From Carcharhinus amblyrhynchos (Eukaryota), in assembly GCA_965287045.1 (NCBI GenBank), contig OZ336884.1:21638001-21702000 (forward strand): a stretch of DNA of 64,000 nucleotides, in the 5' to 3' direction. This document shows, in pieces, positions 1-60,417 of the stretch; position 1 is the first letter of the stretch, and every line of letters starts with the position of its first letter. The position numbers were made by a program, and so were the translations under genes. The notes under the pieces were generated by a model. It saw only the letters and a program-made list of their open reading frames with translations, was not told where the DNA came from and ran no database searches.

Positions 1-343
1 CCACAGGGTATGTTGAAAATTGATTCTGGGGTCATTATAATATGCAATACTTTACAACTGATTGAAGCAGATGCATCATTCTCATTCAAAGGGCGAATTC
101 AATTAGTATTTTTAAAATATCGTAAACAGCAGGGGCGAAGCTGGCAAACGGATTCCAGAGGTCTTTAGTGGGGTACAGGCAGCTCTGTGATATATTTCTC
201 TGCATCACATTACCTGCCCTTCTCCTCTAGTCAAACATGCTTCTGTTTCTAACTAACCATTGCCCGTATTTCAGCCTCTGTCTGCTCCTCCCTCACTCCC
301 ATTCCCGCTTTCAGCCGGCCCCTCTCTTCCCCTCCTTCCCTAC

Positions 344-571
344 CAGACTATCCGTCTCATTCTCCCCTCGGACGCCTTCCTCCTTGGGCACTGGGCTGGA
401 GCTGCCCTCGGGCGCTTTCCTCTCGCTCCGCTTCGACACCGTCCTCCTGTGCCACAGATAGACGGCGCCGGCCCCTAGCAGGAGGGGGCCGCCGATAGCG
501 AGGGCCAGCTGCCAGCGGGGCAGGCCGGAGCCGGAGCCGCTCTGCGAGTCCACTGGTTTCAAGGCCGCCAT
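344..571 (-). CDS. TOMM70: TOMM70 (mitochondrial import receptor Tom70), first coding exon (76 aa); the rest of the gene lies left of the window
   Basis: ATG at 571-569 gives MAALKPVDSQSGSGSGLPRWQLALAIGGPLLLGAGAVYLWHRR...RKAPEG.SSP, matching the vertebrate Tom70 N-terminal signal-anchor (LPRWQLALA.G.PLLLGAGA.YLW, RK.PEG..SP). Phase-0 donor CTG|GTAGGG at 344/343; 228 nt = 76 codons. Confidence 0.93.
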
Positions 572-720
572 CACGGAGCAGGCAGCAAGAGGCCGAAGCA
601 GGGGTCAAGGGGAAAGTCACGCGGCAGCAACTACTTCCGGAGCACATCCTCCTCCAATCACAGCGAACGCCAGGTAGGGGTAGGAGGAGTCATTGCAGCG
701 CCACTGCTCGGCGTGGAGGA
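380..720. promoter_or_regulatory. CpG island / TOMM70 promoter
   Basis: High CpG/GC. ETS/GABP site ACTTCCGG at 633-640, YY1-like GCCGCCATC over the start codon, CCAAT near 655. Confidence 0.8.
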
Positions 721-1222: not shown

Positions 1223-3889
1223 ACTTAATATATTGGTTATGTTGAGCAATCCCTTTCACTACTCTCCAAGTGCTAATGTCTCTGCTGTCTTTTTACTGTA
1301 ATTGAACCAGTGAAGAAAACAGTTTATTAGCATTATTACCTTAGTTTCCCTCCCTCCACACATGCTGGCAACTCTGAGACTTGTTTTTGTTTCAGTTTCC
1401 AGCATCCATTGTGTTTTGCTTTTCCATTTATCGACCATCTAAAAACAAAGGAACGGGGCCCCAAGTCCATTCATCAGATCAAAATTAGTTTGCCCAAGCA
1501 GATAGAAGGGAATAGAAACTTCATGAAAGAGGTAGGTTTTAAGAGGGTCTTGAAAGAGGAGAGAGGTGGTAAGGCAGCCACATTTATGGAAATTAAAAGC
1601 TCAACGGAGCCAGTGAAAGCACTAGACAAAATAGGCGGCTGTCCAGAGTGACCAAATTTAGCAGGGAGGGGGCTGCAAAAAACTGAATGAATTCTTCATG
1701 AAATTAAATATGTACACAAACAGGGAATGAAATGCCTAGATCTAGGTCTATTGGTATGTTTAAATTTAAGTTTATTTATTAGTGTCATTAGCAGGCTTAC
1801 ATTAACACTACAATTAAGTTACTGTGAAAATCTCCATATTCTAACACACATATAGATTTTTATGTATTTACATTAAAAAATTTAGATTATATTCCACATT
1901 CTGTTTATGCTATGTTTTTACAAAGTTGTCCTAAATCTGATTATTTCAAAAATGCAAATCAGCAAACATATCAAAAAATGTAATTTAACTTAGTCCATTC
2001 TATTGTAATGATTATTGATTGGTCATAAAATCATCTGGTTGCTGGGGCAGGAACACACATCATGTGAGCCATACTACACATTAGAATGCACATTTCTTCT
2101 TGTACATATCCTATGAGAACTGTAGAACAACGAGTATCATAATATTCTTCTTTCTCGTGTGGAAATGGTGGCGTGATGTTAATGACTCTGGATTAGTCAT
2201 CCAGAGGCCCAGGCTAATGCTCTAGGGTTCTAAAGATACTGGTGGCTCTCTGATACCTAGCTCATGACCAGAAATTCCTCAAAGTTGGTCCCTCTCCACC
2301 AGCCTTATTTACCAGAAACTCTCTTTGGTGGATTGAACCTAATCCATGTGTTTTTTTTTGGTTTTGTGTAATAATTCTAATTTCTAATTTGAAACATACA
2401 TAGGTAAAGGAGAAAGGATGGCCATTTTGCAATCCTCTCTTTGTGGTATCCATAAATTGAGTATGACACATCTAAAAGAGCAATACTTTATAAAAAAAAT
2501 TAACAACAACTCTGATGGGAAAGCAAAATAACAGTAGGAAGAAGATTTTCACTTTTTTAAAAATGTTGGGACCTCGGTCTGGATTATTGCTTGCCCTTTT
2601 TTATCTCAGAACAGAATTCAGATTCAGCTGAGGCTGAACAGATCTCCTAAACAGGAGAAGAGTTCCACATACATGGAACTGCAACACATAGTTGGTTCTA
2701 AATTGAACTGAAGCTCTACGTGGCAGCAGGAACAAGCCTGGGTATTTTTTTTGTCAGGCTTCTAGCTTCCCGAAAGTGGGGAGCTAGCGGGAGAGGCTAA
2801 GTGGGCCCGGAGAATTCACTCCTGGGCTCGCTAATACCACTTAAATGATATTTAATATATAATTTAAATTCTAACCCCGCCTCCCCAGAAATCTGGTACT
2901 GGGAGAGCTAGAGGGACGCGAAGACTCACACCAATTCTGCGCATCACCCCCCCCCCCAGCGTAATTCTCCCCAAAAAATTAGCTCAGCAAGATGGGAGAA
3001 ATGCGGCCATTGAATTTTTGACACATGACCAACTGTTGGAATTTTCTGATACTGAACTAACTGGTGTGAGACACGAAAATGCCACATAAGTTCAGTTAGA
3101 GATTCATTTCTGAAACTGAAGGTATGTGCTGGTAATGAAAGTGGTCCTGTTCCAGTTTCTAAAGCTCCTTGACACATATTCTATGCTTTGTATGGATCTT
3201 CGGTTCCTACCATGCACTAAAAGACGGGCTTGTGCCTTGCAATGCATGAATCATGTACTGTCTGATTGCAATTCTCATTATGTTTTATTTGTTACTCTCT
3301 TTCCTCAAGAAGTGTAGAATATTTAATTATTGTAGAACATTTACAAGTTATAAGTACGGAAAAATCCTAAAGCTCCTTTACAATCATCAGTGATGATAGA
3401 TGTCGTTATTTCCAGAAATTAGCTCCAGATATTTATTTAATAGAGCCACTCGGACACTGAATGCCTCACAATTGCATCAATAACAAATACTTTGTTGCTA
3501 TCTCCTACCGTTTTATCACTAAAATCAACTATCCAGGAAGATACACCCTTCACAAAAGCTGTTGATTGAATAGCAGATTTTCCAGCTGGCTCTGGTCTGA
3601 ACTTTCTGTTGTTTCAACTCGTAGCATTTGTGTTCAGAAGAGCAGATGAGCAAACAATTTGTCAGCCAAACTAAAGTTAAGTACACCCCCACCAACTGCT
3701 CATCATCCGACCACCTCTTCTAATGAATACTGATTGTACAAGATAATAAAATTGATTCAGAATGCAACCTGTAATTTTCTATTGAGAAGAGATACATCAC
3801 AAATGTTCTGTGTGAGAAATATCTTACCACACTTGGATAGCCCGTTAAAAAGTTGCACAGGATTGCAGACTGATTTTCTGCAGTTAGGT

Positions 3890-7221: not shown

Positions 7222-7744
7222 TTGAAGCAGCATTTACTTCAGTTATACAAGGCATTTGTGAGACTGTATCTCAAATACTGTGTGCAGTTTTGGTCTCCTT
7301 ATTTAAGGAAGGATGGAAATGCAGATTGGAGGCAGTTCAGAGGAGATTGATACTTGGAATGAATGGATTGTCTTAAATAAGATAGAAGAACTGGGCTGGT
7401 CTCCATTGGAGATTAGAAAGTGAGGGATGACTTGATTGAAGTCTGTGAGATCCTGAACAATATTGACGAGGTGGACATTGAAAGGATGTTTCCTCTTCAT
7501 TAAGGGGTACATACTTAAAACTTAAGAGTTATACTTCTTAGACAGAGGTGAGGAGAAATCTTTTCTCTCAGTGGGTCGTGTGACTTTGGAATGCTGCCTC
7601 AGCAGGCAGTGGAAGTGGAATCATCGAATATTTTTAAGGTAGAGGTACATAGATTCTTATTGGAAAAGGGAATTAAAGTTAGTCAGGGTAAATGGGGAAT
7701 GTGGAACTCAACACAAACAGCTCAGCCATGATCTTGTAGAATGA
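7222..7744 (+). mobile_element. CR1-clade LINE 3' fragment (continues briefly after 8516)
   Basis: Decayed LVRP.LEYCVQFWSP...LRGDLIEV..I..RRNFFSQ.VV.LWN coding and the CAGCCATGATCTT 3' UTR. Confidence 0.8.
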
Positions 7745-7798
7745 GTAAAAAGTCTGACAACACCAGGTTTTAGTCCAACCTATTTATTTGATAATATA

Positions 7799-7836
7799 CT
7801 CACAAGCTTTCGGGGTCAGCCCCTTCGTCAGGTGAA
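7799..7836 (-). ncRNA. Minimal type I hammerhead ribozyme motif (left-arm copy)
   Basis: Reverse complement: TTCAC CTGACGA A GGGG CTGA CCCC GAAA GCTT GTGAG. Confidence 0.7.
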
Positions 7837-8382
7837 TGGAGAGTTCTGGCCTCAGACAGAGCATATAAAGCACAGACAGCTTAGAGATTACTGATTAGAA
7901 TGCGAATCCTTACACCTAACCTGCTGTTCAAGACCTGAAGTGGCTGATAATGTGAGTGGAAGGAGCACTGATGACAGTTTAAAGAGATGTGTATTGTCTC
8001 CAGACAGTACAGTAAGTGAGGTTTTGCAAACCCAGGCAAGTCACGGGGGTTACAGATAGTGCGACATGAACCCAAGATCCCTGTTGAGACCGTCCTCATG
8101 TGTGCGGAACTTGGCTATCAGTCTGACGGTCTCAACAGGGATCTTGGGTTCATGTCGCACTATCTGTAACCCCCGTGACTTGCCTGGGTTTGCAAAACCT
8201 CACTTACTGTACTGTCTGGAGACAATACACATCTCTTTAAACTGTCATCAGTGCTCCTTCCACTCACATTATCAGCCACTTCAGGTCTTGAACAGCAGGT
8301 TAGGTGTAAGGATTCGCATTCTAATCAGTAATCTCTAAACTGTCTGTGCTTTATATGCTCTGTCTGAGGCCAGAACTCTCCA

Positions 8383-8420
8383 TTCACCTGACGAAGGGGC
8401 TAACCCCGAAAGCTTGTGAG
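8383..8420 (+). ncRNA. Minimal type I hammerhead ribozyme motif (right-arm copy)
   Basis: TTCAC CTGACGA A GGGG CTAA CCCC GAAA GCTT GTGAG: stem I TCAC/GTGA, core CUGANGA and GAAA, stem II GGGG/CCCC, palindromic stem III AAGCTT. Confidence 0.72.
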
Positions 8421-9329
8421 TATATTATCAAATAAATAGGTTGGACTAAAACCTGGTGTTGTCAGACTTTTTACTGTGTTTACGCCAGTCCAACGCCGGC
8501 ATACCCACATCATGACTTGTAGAATGATGCATCAGGCGCGAGGGGTTGCTTCTATTTTGTATGTTTGTATGAAGATATGCACTTTGTGCTGTCACCAGAG
8601 GAAAGCTCTGTTGTGCAACACAATAACAGCACCTATAGTACCTCATCACACATACAAGACAATGATTGATAGATATTTGGATATTATGGGAATTAAGGGA
8701 TATGGGATTAGTACAAGACAAGAAGAGGTGAGGTAGAATAATAGCCACAATTACAACACAGCAGCTCAAGGGCCATATTACTTATTCTTGCTGCTATTTC
8801 TTATGTTGTATATTAACTCCTATTAAGGGCAAAGTCAACACTAAAAGGGAATGTGGGTGCATAATACAGCGGCAACATTGCAGCATCAACCCTGCAAAGC
8901 ATGACCCCTTGAAATCGAGCTCCCCATCTCGCTGGTGCAGGTGCTCAATTTATTCTATAGAATATTAAACTTGTTTATACGCTTTTTAAAAAAATATTGT
9001 CCAGTTAGTTTTCCACTGGTGTGATCAAGGTGTTAGCGGATCAAAAATGATTTGCAGTGATAGTTGAGTTAATGTTTAAAGAGCAATGTTTGTAGAAGTA
9101 TAAGGGGCCATTGTACTATGACCATGTGAACTGGATTGCTTGCGTACTGAGCAGGTTAGGTAATATATGAGAGTTTTGTTTATGTATTAGTGTGTGAGTC
9201 TTGCTGCCTGCAGAGAGATTTGGCAAGGAATTGGCAAATAAATGCGGGCCTTGCCAACAATGCCCTCATCCCGAGGAGAATCATCTGGCAGAACTTCAGC
9301 ACTAGATTGGGCACCATCAAGAGATCACC

Positions 9330-43184: not shown

Positions 43185-43475
43185 GATGCAGGCATTGGAT
43201 TGGGGTGGGTTTAGTAAAAAGTCTCACAACACCAGATTAAAGTCCAACAGTTTTATTTGGAATCACGAGCTTTCAGAGCGCTACTTCTTCATCAGATGAG
43301 TGGAGAGGTGGATTTATAAACACAGCGTATATAGTAAAGACACAACTGCAAGATGATCATTGGAATGTGGAGTCTTTACAAGTAATCATGTCTTTACAGA
43401 TACAGATTGTGTGAGTGGAGAGAGGAATAACTACAGGTTAAAGAGGTGTGAATTGTCTCAAGCCAGGCCAATTAG
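43185..43475 (-). mobile_element. Penelope-like pLTR fragment (family 1) with degenerate hammerhead (43263-43299)
   Basis: Matches the 7744-8040 arm; reverse complement TCAT CTGATGA AGAAGTAGCGCTCT GAAA GCTC GTGA. Confidence 0.75.
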
Positions 43476-45720: not shown

Positions 45721-45849
45721 TTAAATAAACACAAAATATCCATAAAACTTGAACGAGTTTGTTAACTAACTGACATTTTAAATCTTTCTCCCCCTTGGAC
45801 TTTAACCTGGTGTTGTGAGACTTCTTATTATCTCGGGATGGCCAACTTT

Positions 45850-46205
45850 GCGCAGCTTTGCCGAGCCGACAAAACTTTGGGAAACTTTCGGACAAACTTT
45901 TTTCGCTTGCCACATCGACCCTACACACGGGGAGAAAAAAAACCCAGCTGCACAGTGACACACTCCGCCCGGAAGGTGGCGCCGGCGGCCGGGTAGGAAG
46001 ATTGACAGCTGAACTGACCATAGGGAGGTCGCGGTTGGGACGTGGCGACCAATGGGCACTGGCGGGGGGAGGGGCCGGTAGGCGCAGGGGGTGGGGCTGA
46101 GTTCCTCACGGCTGCTGCCGCGTTAAAGAGTTTGGACAACTTTTTATGAAACGAAACGTCCGCGGCTTCTACACTCACAAAACAGGAGAGGCGAGGAAAG
46201 TATGA
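45850..46205. promoter_or_regulatory. CpG island / probable promoter of an unidentified gene (likely plus strand)
   Basis: Dense CpG. GC-box CTCCGCCC 45963-45970, CCGGAAG, CCAAT 46049-46053, Sp/KLF GGGGGAGGGG and GGGGTGGGG. Possible donor AA|GTATGA near 46200. Confidence 0.7.
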
Positions 46206-46831
46206 CATGTAAAACTTCTGGAGGAAGGATCTCTTCACCTTGAAAGAGGAGAGGCTGCCTGGAGCTTCTTTAAAGCCACTTTTTGGGGCAAGTCAATCAA
46301 TGATCAAAACTCTCAAAGAGCTGAAAATTAGATGTTTGTTGAATTGTACCTCGACTTTCTTTTGTGTTCTGGTCCTTAGCAACAATTTAAAGGCTTTAAC
46401 CCCCCTGAAGCGACACCCTTGTTTGATTGATTGTCTGAATATTGGTGACTCAGATTAGATGCCGGGTGTAAGATTTGTGATTAATTGCTAAATGCTTCCC
46501 CCATCAAAAAATACACCCGGCCACCCCCTTGTCTTAACATATGGAAACAGTTAGTTGTCTGGGCTGAAGGCATTGTTGCTGGACCAGAGCACTCCAGCCG
46601 TCAGCGAAGCAGAAAATACACAGCAGCTCTGGCATCATCTGGGAAGAGAGGGAGACAGACAAGAAGAGTTCACATTGCAGGTCGGTGTTTTTTTCCCTCC
46701 CCCCCCCCCTCTGCCACTCGTCGATCCAGAGTATGTTTGTCTCAGTGGAACAGTTCCGTGAGTTTTCAGAAGGGTTCAATCTTAGTTCATCTGTCCAGAT
46801 GCAGCAGAGTGGATTGCTAAAGTGAGGAGGC

Positions 46832-47110
46832 ATGATGTGGAGATGCCTGCGTTGGACTGGGGGTGGGCACAGTAAGAAGTCTCACAACACCAGGTTAAAG
46901 TCCAACAGGTTTATTTGGAGTCACGAGCTTTCGGAGCACTGCTCCTTCACCAGGCTCTTCCGGTGTTCGTGACGTGGAGATGCCAGCGTTGGACTGGGGC
47001 AGGCACAGTACGTAGTCTCACAACACCCAAGTTAAAATTCAACAGGTTTATTTGATAGCACGAGCTTTCAAGCTCTAAACTTACTACTCCTCCAGTGTTG
47101 TGAGACTTCT
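46832..47110 (-). mobile_element. Penelope-like pLTR (family 1): two tandem partial units plus a short inverted end, with degenerate TSD
   Basis: Units start (AT)GATGTGGAGATGCC.GCGTTGGACTGGG. Hammerhead-like CTGGTGA AGGAGC AGT GCTCC GAAA GCTC GTGA (reverse complement of 46921-46953). Inverted GTGTTGTGAGACTTCT at the end. TAAAGTGAG at 46818 and 47111. Confidence 0.75.
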
Positions 47111-59997: not shown

Positions 59998-60417
59998 CAG
60001 GAATTTTACTGGCATGCCTGCCCTGATTCTCGCAGAGTGGCATTCTCCGTTAGCCTTGGGCGGGCAAGGCAGTAGAATTCCGGGAGGAATGTTAACTCTG
60101 CTTCTCACTTTTTGTTTGTGCAGCATGTTTAGTGTTTATTTCAGATCCGCAGCATTTTGCTTTTGTATGTATGTAAGTACTTATTTGTGTGTATGATATG
60201 TCCCTCCTATAACTTTCCTTAGGACAGTAGAAAGTTACCCGTTTTAACTGGTAGAACAGCTGGAGAAATTTTCATGTGAACATTTCTAATGTTCTTTTTA
60301 CTGTGCTTACCCCAGTCCAATGCCGGCATCTCCACATCATAACATTTCTAATGCCAGTGTTGTGACTAAAATTACTAAGCCAGGAGATTCTTCTTACAGA
60401 AGCACTTTTTAATGGAA

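What the first reader, a model, noticed from the sequence alone, without database searches (positions are those of the whole stretch)
7733..8527. Young Penelope-like palindrome: 351-bp near-perfect arms, 30-nt spacer, 12-bp TSD, a hammerhead on each strand
Seen: arms 7744-8094 and 8125-8475 differ at only about 2 positions that I found. The spacer plus left arm encodes the GIY-YIG C-terminus (RLIAKFRTHEDGLNRDLGFMSHYL*). The element sits inside a CR1 3' UTR between CTTGTAGAATGA repeats, so it inserted as one event. Each strand carries a minimal hammerhead motif (8383-8420 plus; 7799-7836 minus). Established: Penelope-like elements form inverted pLTR structures and carry minimal hammerheads with palindromic stem III that are thought to act as dimers. 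Inference: a recently active family. Read-through from either direction would form a ~350-bp dsRNA hairpin (ADAR/Dicer substrate) that sequesters the ribozyme; the DNA could form a cruciform.
Basis: partly seen in the sequence, partly recalled or inferred. Interest (0 to 1): 0.7.

Follow-up and report, generated by a model that had tools for sequence, protein, structure and literature searches.

The report
Twin-primed Penelope retroelement palindrome, shark
This mirror-image insertion is real but ordinary in kind: it is one of thousands of cut-short copies of a Penelope-type jumping gene in what is likely a shark genome, and its sister copies suggest that one RNA is likely copied onto both cut DNA strands at once.

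Summary
Observation confirmed: 351-bp arms with 2 mismatches, 30-nt spacer, 12-bp target duplication, a minimal hammerhead motif on each strand, inside a LINE 3' end. The element is a 5'-truncated copy of a very abundant, young RT+GIY-YIG Penelope-like family (15,545 exact hits of a pLTR 30-mer; intact 893-aa ORFs; shark homologues; Neptune-type Cys linker). Inverted copy + one-sided tail + duplication, and hammerheads on opposite strands, are in print. Sister copies add mechanism. Of 139 head-to-head insertions, 118 have one tailed and one tail-less end, none have two of a kind, and 21 could not be classed. The two arms' 5' ends correlate. Locus-private junctions recur on both arms in 7 loci (3 loci are discordant). 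Best reading: both nicked target strands prime reverse transcription on one RNA, from two start sites 40 nt apart. The dsRNA/ADAR/cruciform role is untested; no A>G excess in DNA. This scan noted such palindromes before on other DNA (102 findings), some with the twin-priming reading.

The parts
7733..7744 (+). Left target-site duplication (12 bp; last base also fits the element, 1-nt ambiguity)
   Evidence: family mode 12 bp
7745..8124 (-). Tail-less inverted arm: last 25 codons of the ORF plus pLTR, ending at the inner end site; 8095-8124 (the 'spacer') is its extra 5' 30 nt
   Evidence: 97% to an intact copy, reference positions 2604-2984
8050..8124 (-). GIY-YIG C-terminal codons RLIAK...HYL*
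7799..7836 (-). Minimal type I hammerhead motif, minus-strand copy
   Evidence: by eye; core conserved in 185 copies
8125..8475 (+). Direct arm: last 15 codons of the ORF plus pLTR
   Evidence: 98% to intact copy, reference 2634-2984
8350..8356 (+). TATA-like motif; family 5' ends pile up 10-35 nt behind it (8366-8390), a likely transcription start (inferred)
   Evidence: 24 of 97 ends in 25 nt, against 16 of 97 in the 75 nt before
8383..8420 (+). Minimal type I hammerhead motif; predicted cut after 8415
8416..8488 (+). Candidate 73-nt GT-AG 5'-UTR intron; donor at the predicted hammerhead cut, inner end site inside it (untested)
   Evidence: sequence; acceptor G in 92 of 92 copies, donor GT 155 / GC 28 of 185; no spliced copy among 185
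8476..8515 (+). 40-nt PLE tail, on this end only; ends at the ORF start codon (8512-8514)
8516..8527 (+). Right target-site duplication
7600..7732 (+). Host LINE (CR1-type, recalled label) 3' end, left part
   Evidence: about 72% to other copies
8528..8575 (+). Continuation of the host LINE 3' UTR beyond the insertion
   Evidence: read by eye against the continuations printed

Best explanation
This is a 5'-truncated insertion of an abundant endonuclease-bearing Penelope-like retrotransposon, likely of the Neptune clade, whose two mirror arms were likely made at the site when both nicked target strands primed reverse transcription on one element RNA. Shown: anatomy, duplication, family membership and the one-tail rule across copies. 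Inferred: (1) the GIY-YIG domains nick both strands about 12 nt apart; (2) one 3' end primes at the outer start site (tail end, at the ATG) and the other at the inner site 40 nt upstream; (3) both polymerases run towards the RNA's 5' end, the trailing one displacing the first cDNA; (4) both stopped early here, 30 nt apart, and the two cDNA ends were joined head to head (blunt here, often with a few shared bases elsewhere); (5) fill-in gave the palindrome and the 12-bp duplication. The copy has no RT and is a passive remnant. Its two hammerheads lie on opposite strands, so they cannot form the tandem dimer in cis.
For: 118 of 139 head-to-head insertions have one tailed and one tail-less end, 0 have two of a kind, 21 unclassed. 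In the sample picked without regard to the tail: 38 of 41, 3 unclassed (p = 7e-12 for 38 of 38 against independent 50:50 choice). 5 further pairs split by other DNA but sharing a duplication obey the rule. Duplications of 11-15 bp in 69 of 77 two-arm insertions, mode 12. 5' ends of the two arms within 15 nt in 18 of 35, against a shuffled mean of 5.6 and maximum 13 in 10,000. The tail-less arm reaches more than 15 nt further 5' in 31 of 77 (the tailed arm in 16 of 77), as in this window, so neither arm is a plain copy of the other. 32 loci carry an ORF-start-to-pLTR junction, none shared between loci; 7 have it identically on both arms, and in 7 more the other arm stops within 8 nt of it (read). 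Arm-arm difference is below that to the nearest other insertion in 8 of 10 long cases, 2 ties. In vitro, an anole PLE cuts and extends both strands from two RT start sites that bound the tail and is predicted to dimerise (PMC11167929).
Against: No intermediate was observed; all of it is read from end products. In 3 loci (L224, L257, L262) the tail-less arm reads through a junction or deletion that the tailed arm carries: this needs a template jump by one polymerase, or two templates. The test of which pLTR copy the inverted arm follows was mixed: 14:2 for the downstream copy in L153 and 0:1 in L103; 15:9 sites and 3:1 loci. 26 of 67 clusters in the tail-blind sample show one arm only. PMC11167929 saw no strand difference in start-site use, and it studied a Poseidon, not a Neptune. 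Arm-to-arm gene conversion could add to arm likeness. The Neptune label rests on the Cys linker motif, not on a tree.
Confidence: 0.7

Rival explanations
1. Twin priming, but on two separate RNA molecules, with the two subunits or steps fixed to different start sites.
For: Explains the one-tail rule and the 3 discordant loci; needs no strand displacement.
Against: Does not explain locus-private junctions on both arms in 7 loci or 5' ends that coincide well above shuffled expectation, also among long arms (12 of 39 within 50 nt against 3.5), unless both RNAs come from a source that is absent from the sample.
Confidence: 0.15
2. Fold-back or self-priming: one cDNA (or an antisense template, as proposed in PMC3846280) turns back and copies itself.
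For: Gives near-identical arms, shared junctions and correlated lengths. The inverted arm matched the adjacent copy in 1 of 4 informative loci.
Against: A fold-back of the tailed strand cannot give a tail-less arm that is longer at its 5' end (31 of 77, and this window), and a fold-back of the tail-less strand has no tail to copy.
Confidence: 0.1
3. A functional or selected hairpin or cruciform (ADAR/Dicer substrate that sequesters the ribozyme).
For: A read-through RNA would fold into a 350-bp duplex. PLE copies yield small RNAs in a rotifer (PMC3846280 discussion).
Against: The shape is the family default. The insertion is apparently absent from four other organisms, so it is not conserved. 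No A>G excess in genomic copies.
Confidence: 0.04
4. Fold-back assembly artefact.
For: No laid contig spans the whole element or its centre.
Against: One-sided tail, unique spacer, 2 mismatches, unmirrored flanks, duplication; the same design at 117 other loci; contigs of two samples cross the tail-duplication-flank joint (one may be the assembly's own source).
Confidence: 0.01

Closest known systems
EN+ PLE insertions with inverted pLTR, one-sided 30-40 bp tail and target duplication (Pen2a_Av and others, PMC3846280; general scheme in PMC8557442 Fig. 2 legend)
   Same: Head-to-head inverted 5'-truncated copy, tail at one end, short duplication (8-10 bp there, 12 here).
   Different: Those papers call the tail optional or often one-sided and favour self-priming or endonuclease resolution. 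Here the one-tail rule held in 118 of 118 classable insertions.
Neptune clade of Penelope-like elements (PMC8557442)
   Same: Single ORF with RT, then CX2-5CxxC linker (C-x4-C-xx-C), then C-terminal GIY-YIG; hammerhead in the pLTR.
   Different: Nematis shares the linker; no tree against named Neptune references was built. The closest named homologues are uncharacterised shark proteins at 84-91% identity.
Poseidon of Anolis carolinensis (PAc), in vitro (PMC11167929)
   Same: Tail bounded by two end sites; hammerhead in the pLTR.
   Different: In PAc the ORF starts at the hammerhead and the tail lies about 110 nt inside the ORF. Here the tail ends at the start codon. That paper does not derive the inverted copy from double priming in the parts read.
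Minimal hammerheads of metazoan PLEs (PMC4209133)
   Same: Short stem I, unpaired base before stem II, palindromic 15.2-16.2; dual motifs on opposite strands 100-700 bp apart were already noted.
   Different: Cleavage was not tested here. A candidate intron donor sits at the predicted cut, whereas in D. virilis the intron's 3' end meets helix I.
L1 twin priming (recalled; PMC2837659 seen as a search listing only)
   Same: Both target strands prime on one RNA, giving an inversion flanked by duplications.
   Different: L1 pieces copy different parts of the RNA; here both arms copy the same part from fixed sites 40 nt apart.

Membership tests
EN+ Penelope-like element | One ORF with RT and C-terminal GIY-YIG endonuclease | tested here: met
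   893-aa ORF in sister copies: RVT_1, GIY-YIG 24.2 bits against cut-off 22.6 on the last 120 aa; the window holds its last 25 codons
EN+ Penelope-like element | pLTRs formed by partial tandems, direct or inverted | tested here: met
EN+ Penelope-like element | 30-40 bp tail at one end | tested here: met
   8476-8515; family tail ends centre on reference 3019-3023, inner ends on 2982-2985
EN+ Penelope-like element | Short target-site duplication | tested here: met
   12 bp; 69 of 77 at 11-15 bp; null 4 of 425
EN+ Penelope-like element | Telomerase-like RT by phylogeny | not tested
   no tree built
Neptune clade | CX2-5CxxC zinc-finger-like linker between RT and EN (shared with Nematis) | tested here: met
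   C-x4-C-xx-C in the ORF printed; definition from PMC8557442
Neptune clade | Grouping with named Neptune RTs | not tested
   no named reference sequences were returned by the tools
Minimal type I hammerhead | Conserved core, stem II, short stem I, palindromic stem III | tested here: met
   core positions 95-100% conserved in 185 copies, apart from the variable N7 and cleavage-site bases; stem II pair 2 is A-U in 69 and G-C in 67 of 140 contexts (may reflect few events); no Rfam hit
Minimal type I hammerhead | Self-cleavage as monomer or dimer | not testable with these tools
   no sharp pile-up of 5' ends at the predicted cut: 1 of 97 within 2 nt
Non-LTR retrozyme | Tandem short repeats, each with a hammerhead | tested here: not met
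   the window element has no tandem units; sister loci such as L250 do
MITE / DNA transposon | Fixed ends and a fixed internal sequence moving as a unit | tested here: not met
   arm lengths and centres differ from locus to locus

The most novel reading that the evidence does not exclude
The PLE inverted repeat and tail are the obligatory product of one RNA being reverse-transcribed twice by a dimer, one subunit from each start site onto each nicked strand. The inner start site lies inside a 5'-UTR intron whose donor is the hammerhead cut site, so only unspliced, uncut RNA can be inserted, which would explain intron retention in this family. Jumps from an RNA's 5' end to its own 3' end make the tandem hammerhead 'retrozyme' arrays at the moment of insertion.
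Probability: 0.4. Interest if true: 0.6.

Novelty: new member of a known kind. Interest (0 to 1): 0.3.

Why it matters
The single locus is ordinary. The family matters as a natural data set. How PLEs build their inverted copy and one-sided tail is stated as open in the papers read (PMC3846280, PMC8557442, PMC11167929). Thousands of young copies in one genome give a strict rule and private junction markers that make a one-RNA, two-primer model directly testable in the existing in vitro system. Intact 893-aa ORFs offer a Neptune-type enzyme for it.

Tried and rejected
Rfam: only mir-607, below its gathering score, a hairpin artefact. PDB sequence search with the 893-aa protein: 0 hits. The protein atlas look-up gave no result. 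No RNA holder listed, so expression, splicing and editing were not examined. ADAR signature in DNA: none (shared 6 A>G against 5 T>C; arm-private 20 against 17), although both mismatches in the window are A/G in sense. Spliced genomic copies: none among 185 pLTR segments. Hammerhead cut as a common 5' end: not seen (1 of 97 in the tail-blind sample, 5 of 357 overall). Target motif: no strong base preference in 73 duplications. Structure around the two end sites: z = -1.05, not above shuffles. Host gene: four candidate exon peptides had no Pfam hit, so whether the element lies in an intron is unknown. The letters of the presumed empty sites were not displayed, and no laid contig covered the centre. 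Three distant arm pairs without a shared duplication (L174 two inner ends, L076 one of each, L027 two tails) were not counted as single insertions. Clusters touching a locus edge were dropped before counting. Literature searches found no paper stating the one-tail rule or a one-RNA double-priming model; subscription papers (e.g. Arkhipova 2006, recalled only) and all supplements were not seen.

Full report
Observation. The arms are at 7744-8094 and 8125-8475, 351 nt, with two mismatches. A 30-nt spacer lies between them and an identical 12-mer at 7733-7744 and 8516-8527. The minus strand from 8124 reads RLIAKFRTHEDGLNRDLGFMSHYL*. A hammerhead-type core stands on each strand, with the CUU triplet ending at 8415 (by eye); Rfam gave only a sub-threshold mir-607 hairpin match. 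Forty further bases, 8476-8515, lie between the right arm and the duplication and have no mirror. Other copies of the host LINE 3' end read straight from the left-flank sequence into sequence like the right flank (90 hits, 14 printed, compared by eye; 'CR1' is a recalled label).

Is it real and young? Contigs of two samples of one study run from inside the tail (8499, 8495) across the duplication to 9300 with 0 and 4 other letters; one may be the assembly's source, and no contig spans the centre. In 4 of 4 runs of other organisms the matching contig begins exactly at 8516 with 42 unmatched letters before it. This is what an empty site would give, but the letters were not shown. The nearest other insertion differs by 1-2 nt in about 330.

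Family. The genome is 2.92 Gb. A pLTR 30-mer has 15,545 exact hits and a degenerate tail 30-mer 8,186 (controls 0; the patterns differ in looseness, so the ratio is rough). Nine of 20 loci fetched for long frames hold a 917-codon open frame, 893 aa from the ATG that ends the tail. It hits RVT_1 and GIY-YIG and has a C-x4-C-xx-C linker, the mark of Neptune and Nematis in PMC8557442 (passages). The best named homologues are shark proteins at 84-91%, so the host is probably a shark (inference).

What is known. PMC3846280 (passages and Discussion) describes inverted pLTR, a 31-bp tail on one end and an 8-10 bp duplication, and favours self-priming. PMC8557442 (passages) gives the same scheme. PMC4209133 (parts 1-2 of 4) defines the minimal hammerhead, notes pairs on opposite strands 100-700 bp apart and reports low activity, seen only in dimers or extended forms. 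PMC11167929 (parts 1-2 of 4) shows an anole PLE cutting and extending both strands from two RT start sites that bound the tail, with the hammerhead dispensable for insertion. The retrozyme preprint 10.64898/2026.07.22.740005 (passages) links tandem hammerhead repeats to PLE pLTRs. PMC12602865 held none of my terms. The architecture is therefore known.

What the sister copies add. With a real tandem copy (L105) as reference, I classed both outer ends of every head-to-head cluster. Sample anchored on the pLTR 30-mer, blind to the tail: 67 clusters, 41 head-to-head, 38 with one tail and one inner end, 3 unclassed, none with two of a kind; 26 showed one arm. Other samples, partly tail-biased: 49 of 58 and 31 of 40, again none with two of a kind. 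Total 118 of 139, 21 unclassed. Five split pairs sharing a duplication also obey the rule; three distant pairs without a duplication were set aside. Duplications are 11-15 bp in 69 of 77, mode 12, found with 8 nt of slack (null 4 of 425).

One template or two. The arms' 5' ends lie within 15 nt in 18 of 35 tail-blind two-arm cases (shuffled mean 5.6, maximum 13; Spearman 0.71) and within 50 nt in 12 of 39 long cases (3.5 expected). Among 60 loci fetched from 90 ORF-start hits, 32 carry a junction from the ORF's first 28-484 nt back into the pLTR. No two loci share it, yet 7 loci have it identically on both arms, and in 7 more the other arm ends within 8 nt of it (read). Against this, 3 loci have a junction or deletion on the tailed arm that the tail-less arm reads through. 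The tail-less arm is more than 15 nt longer at its 5' end in 31 of 77 and shorter in 16 (p = 0.04). This fits a leading inner and a trailing outer polymerase and does not fit a plain fold-back; the window's element, with a private 30 nt on one arm and a private 40 nt on the other, is such a case. Which pLTR copy the inverted arm follows was mixed (14:2 and 0:1; 15:9). At the centre, 35 of the 49 cases without inserted bases overlap by 2 nt or more in the BLAST alignments (about 16% expected by my arithmetic, rough); the window's joint is blunt.

Mechanism (inferred). Two nicks about 12 nt apart; each 3' end primes on the same RNA, one at the tail end and one 40 nt inside; synthesis stops early; the two cDNA ends are joined head to head; fill-in completes the palindrome. 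Family 5' ends pile up at 8366-8390, behind a TATA-like motif (24 of 97), a likely transcription start. The window's arms run about 240-290 nt past that point into endonuclease codons, so their template was the 3' end of an ORF-bearing or read-through RNA. Confidence 0.7; two RNAs 0.15; fold-back 0.1.

Hammerhead and intron. The core is conserved in 185 copies, and one stem II pair alternates between A-U and G-C. The two motifs here are on opposite strands, so no cis dimer forms. 5' ends do not pile up at the predicted cut. GT at 8416 and CAG at 8486-8488 define a 73-nt candidate intron, close to the 75-bp 5'-UTR intron of D. virilis Penelope (PMC8557442); no spliced copy was found among 185 and no RNA was tested.

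The duplex folds in silico, but transcription here is unshown and genomic copies carry no editing bias.

Earlier scan notes. None by sequence; 102 by words in at least 21 genomes, 8 shown, several proposing twin priming. I had that reading before the look-up; the test of 5' ends was prompted by them.

Verdict. Real; a new member of a known kind; interest 0.3, carried by the family-level mechanism rather than by this locus.

Noticed in passing
L250:3170-6315 (G000:C21:4180435-4183084); also L238, L259, L262: Retrozyme-like arrays: 288-bp units (pLTR with hammerhead plus the first 85 nt of the ORF), 3 on one arm and 7 on the other of a single head-to-head insertion with a 13-bp duplication and one private junction.
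   Followed up: partly
L213, L227, L234, L266: A minority of insertions end 56-177 nt inside the ORF with an 11-13 bp duplication, suggesting priming at the 3' end of short RNA fragments.
   Followed up: no
L004-L012 (G000:C161): Nine near-identical single-arm tailed copies embedded in a 33-bp tandem repeat array, apparently multiplied with the array.
   Followed up: no
window 43186-43466, 45795-47057, 60294-60340: Older, diverged copies of related Penelope-like ends (71-89%); 45795-45827 and 46873-46905 are a perfect 33-nt inverted pair about 1.1 kb apart.
   Followed up: no
window 1-700: CpG-rich stretch with a possible splice donor near 674 on the + strand; may be a gene's first exon, which would put the element in an intron.
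   Followed up: partly
L211, L246: Complex insertions with a second internal inversion or nested pLTR pieces, still bounded by one tail, one inner end and a 13-bp duplication.
   Followed up: no
P0038, P0024-P0026: Pieces of this protein family appear fused in predicted host proteins (a NOXP20-like model in a shark, zinc-finger models in a turtle); may be annotation artefacts.
   Followed up: no
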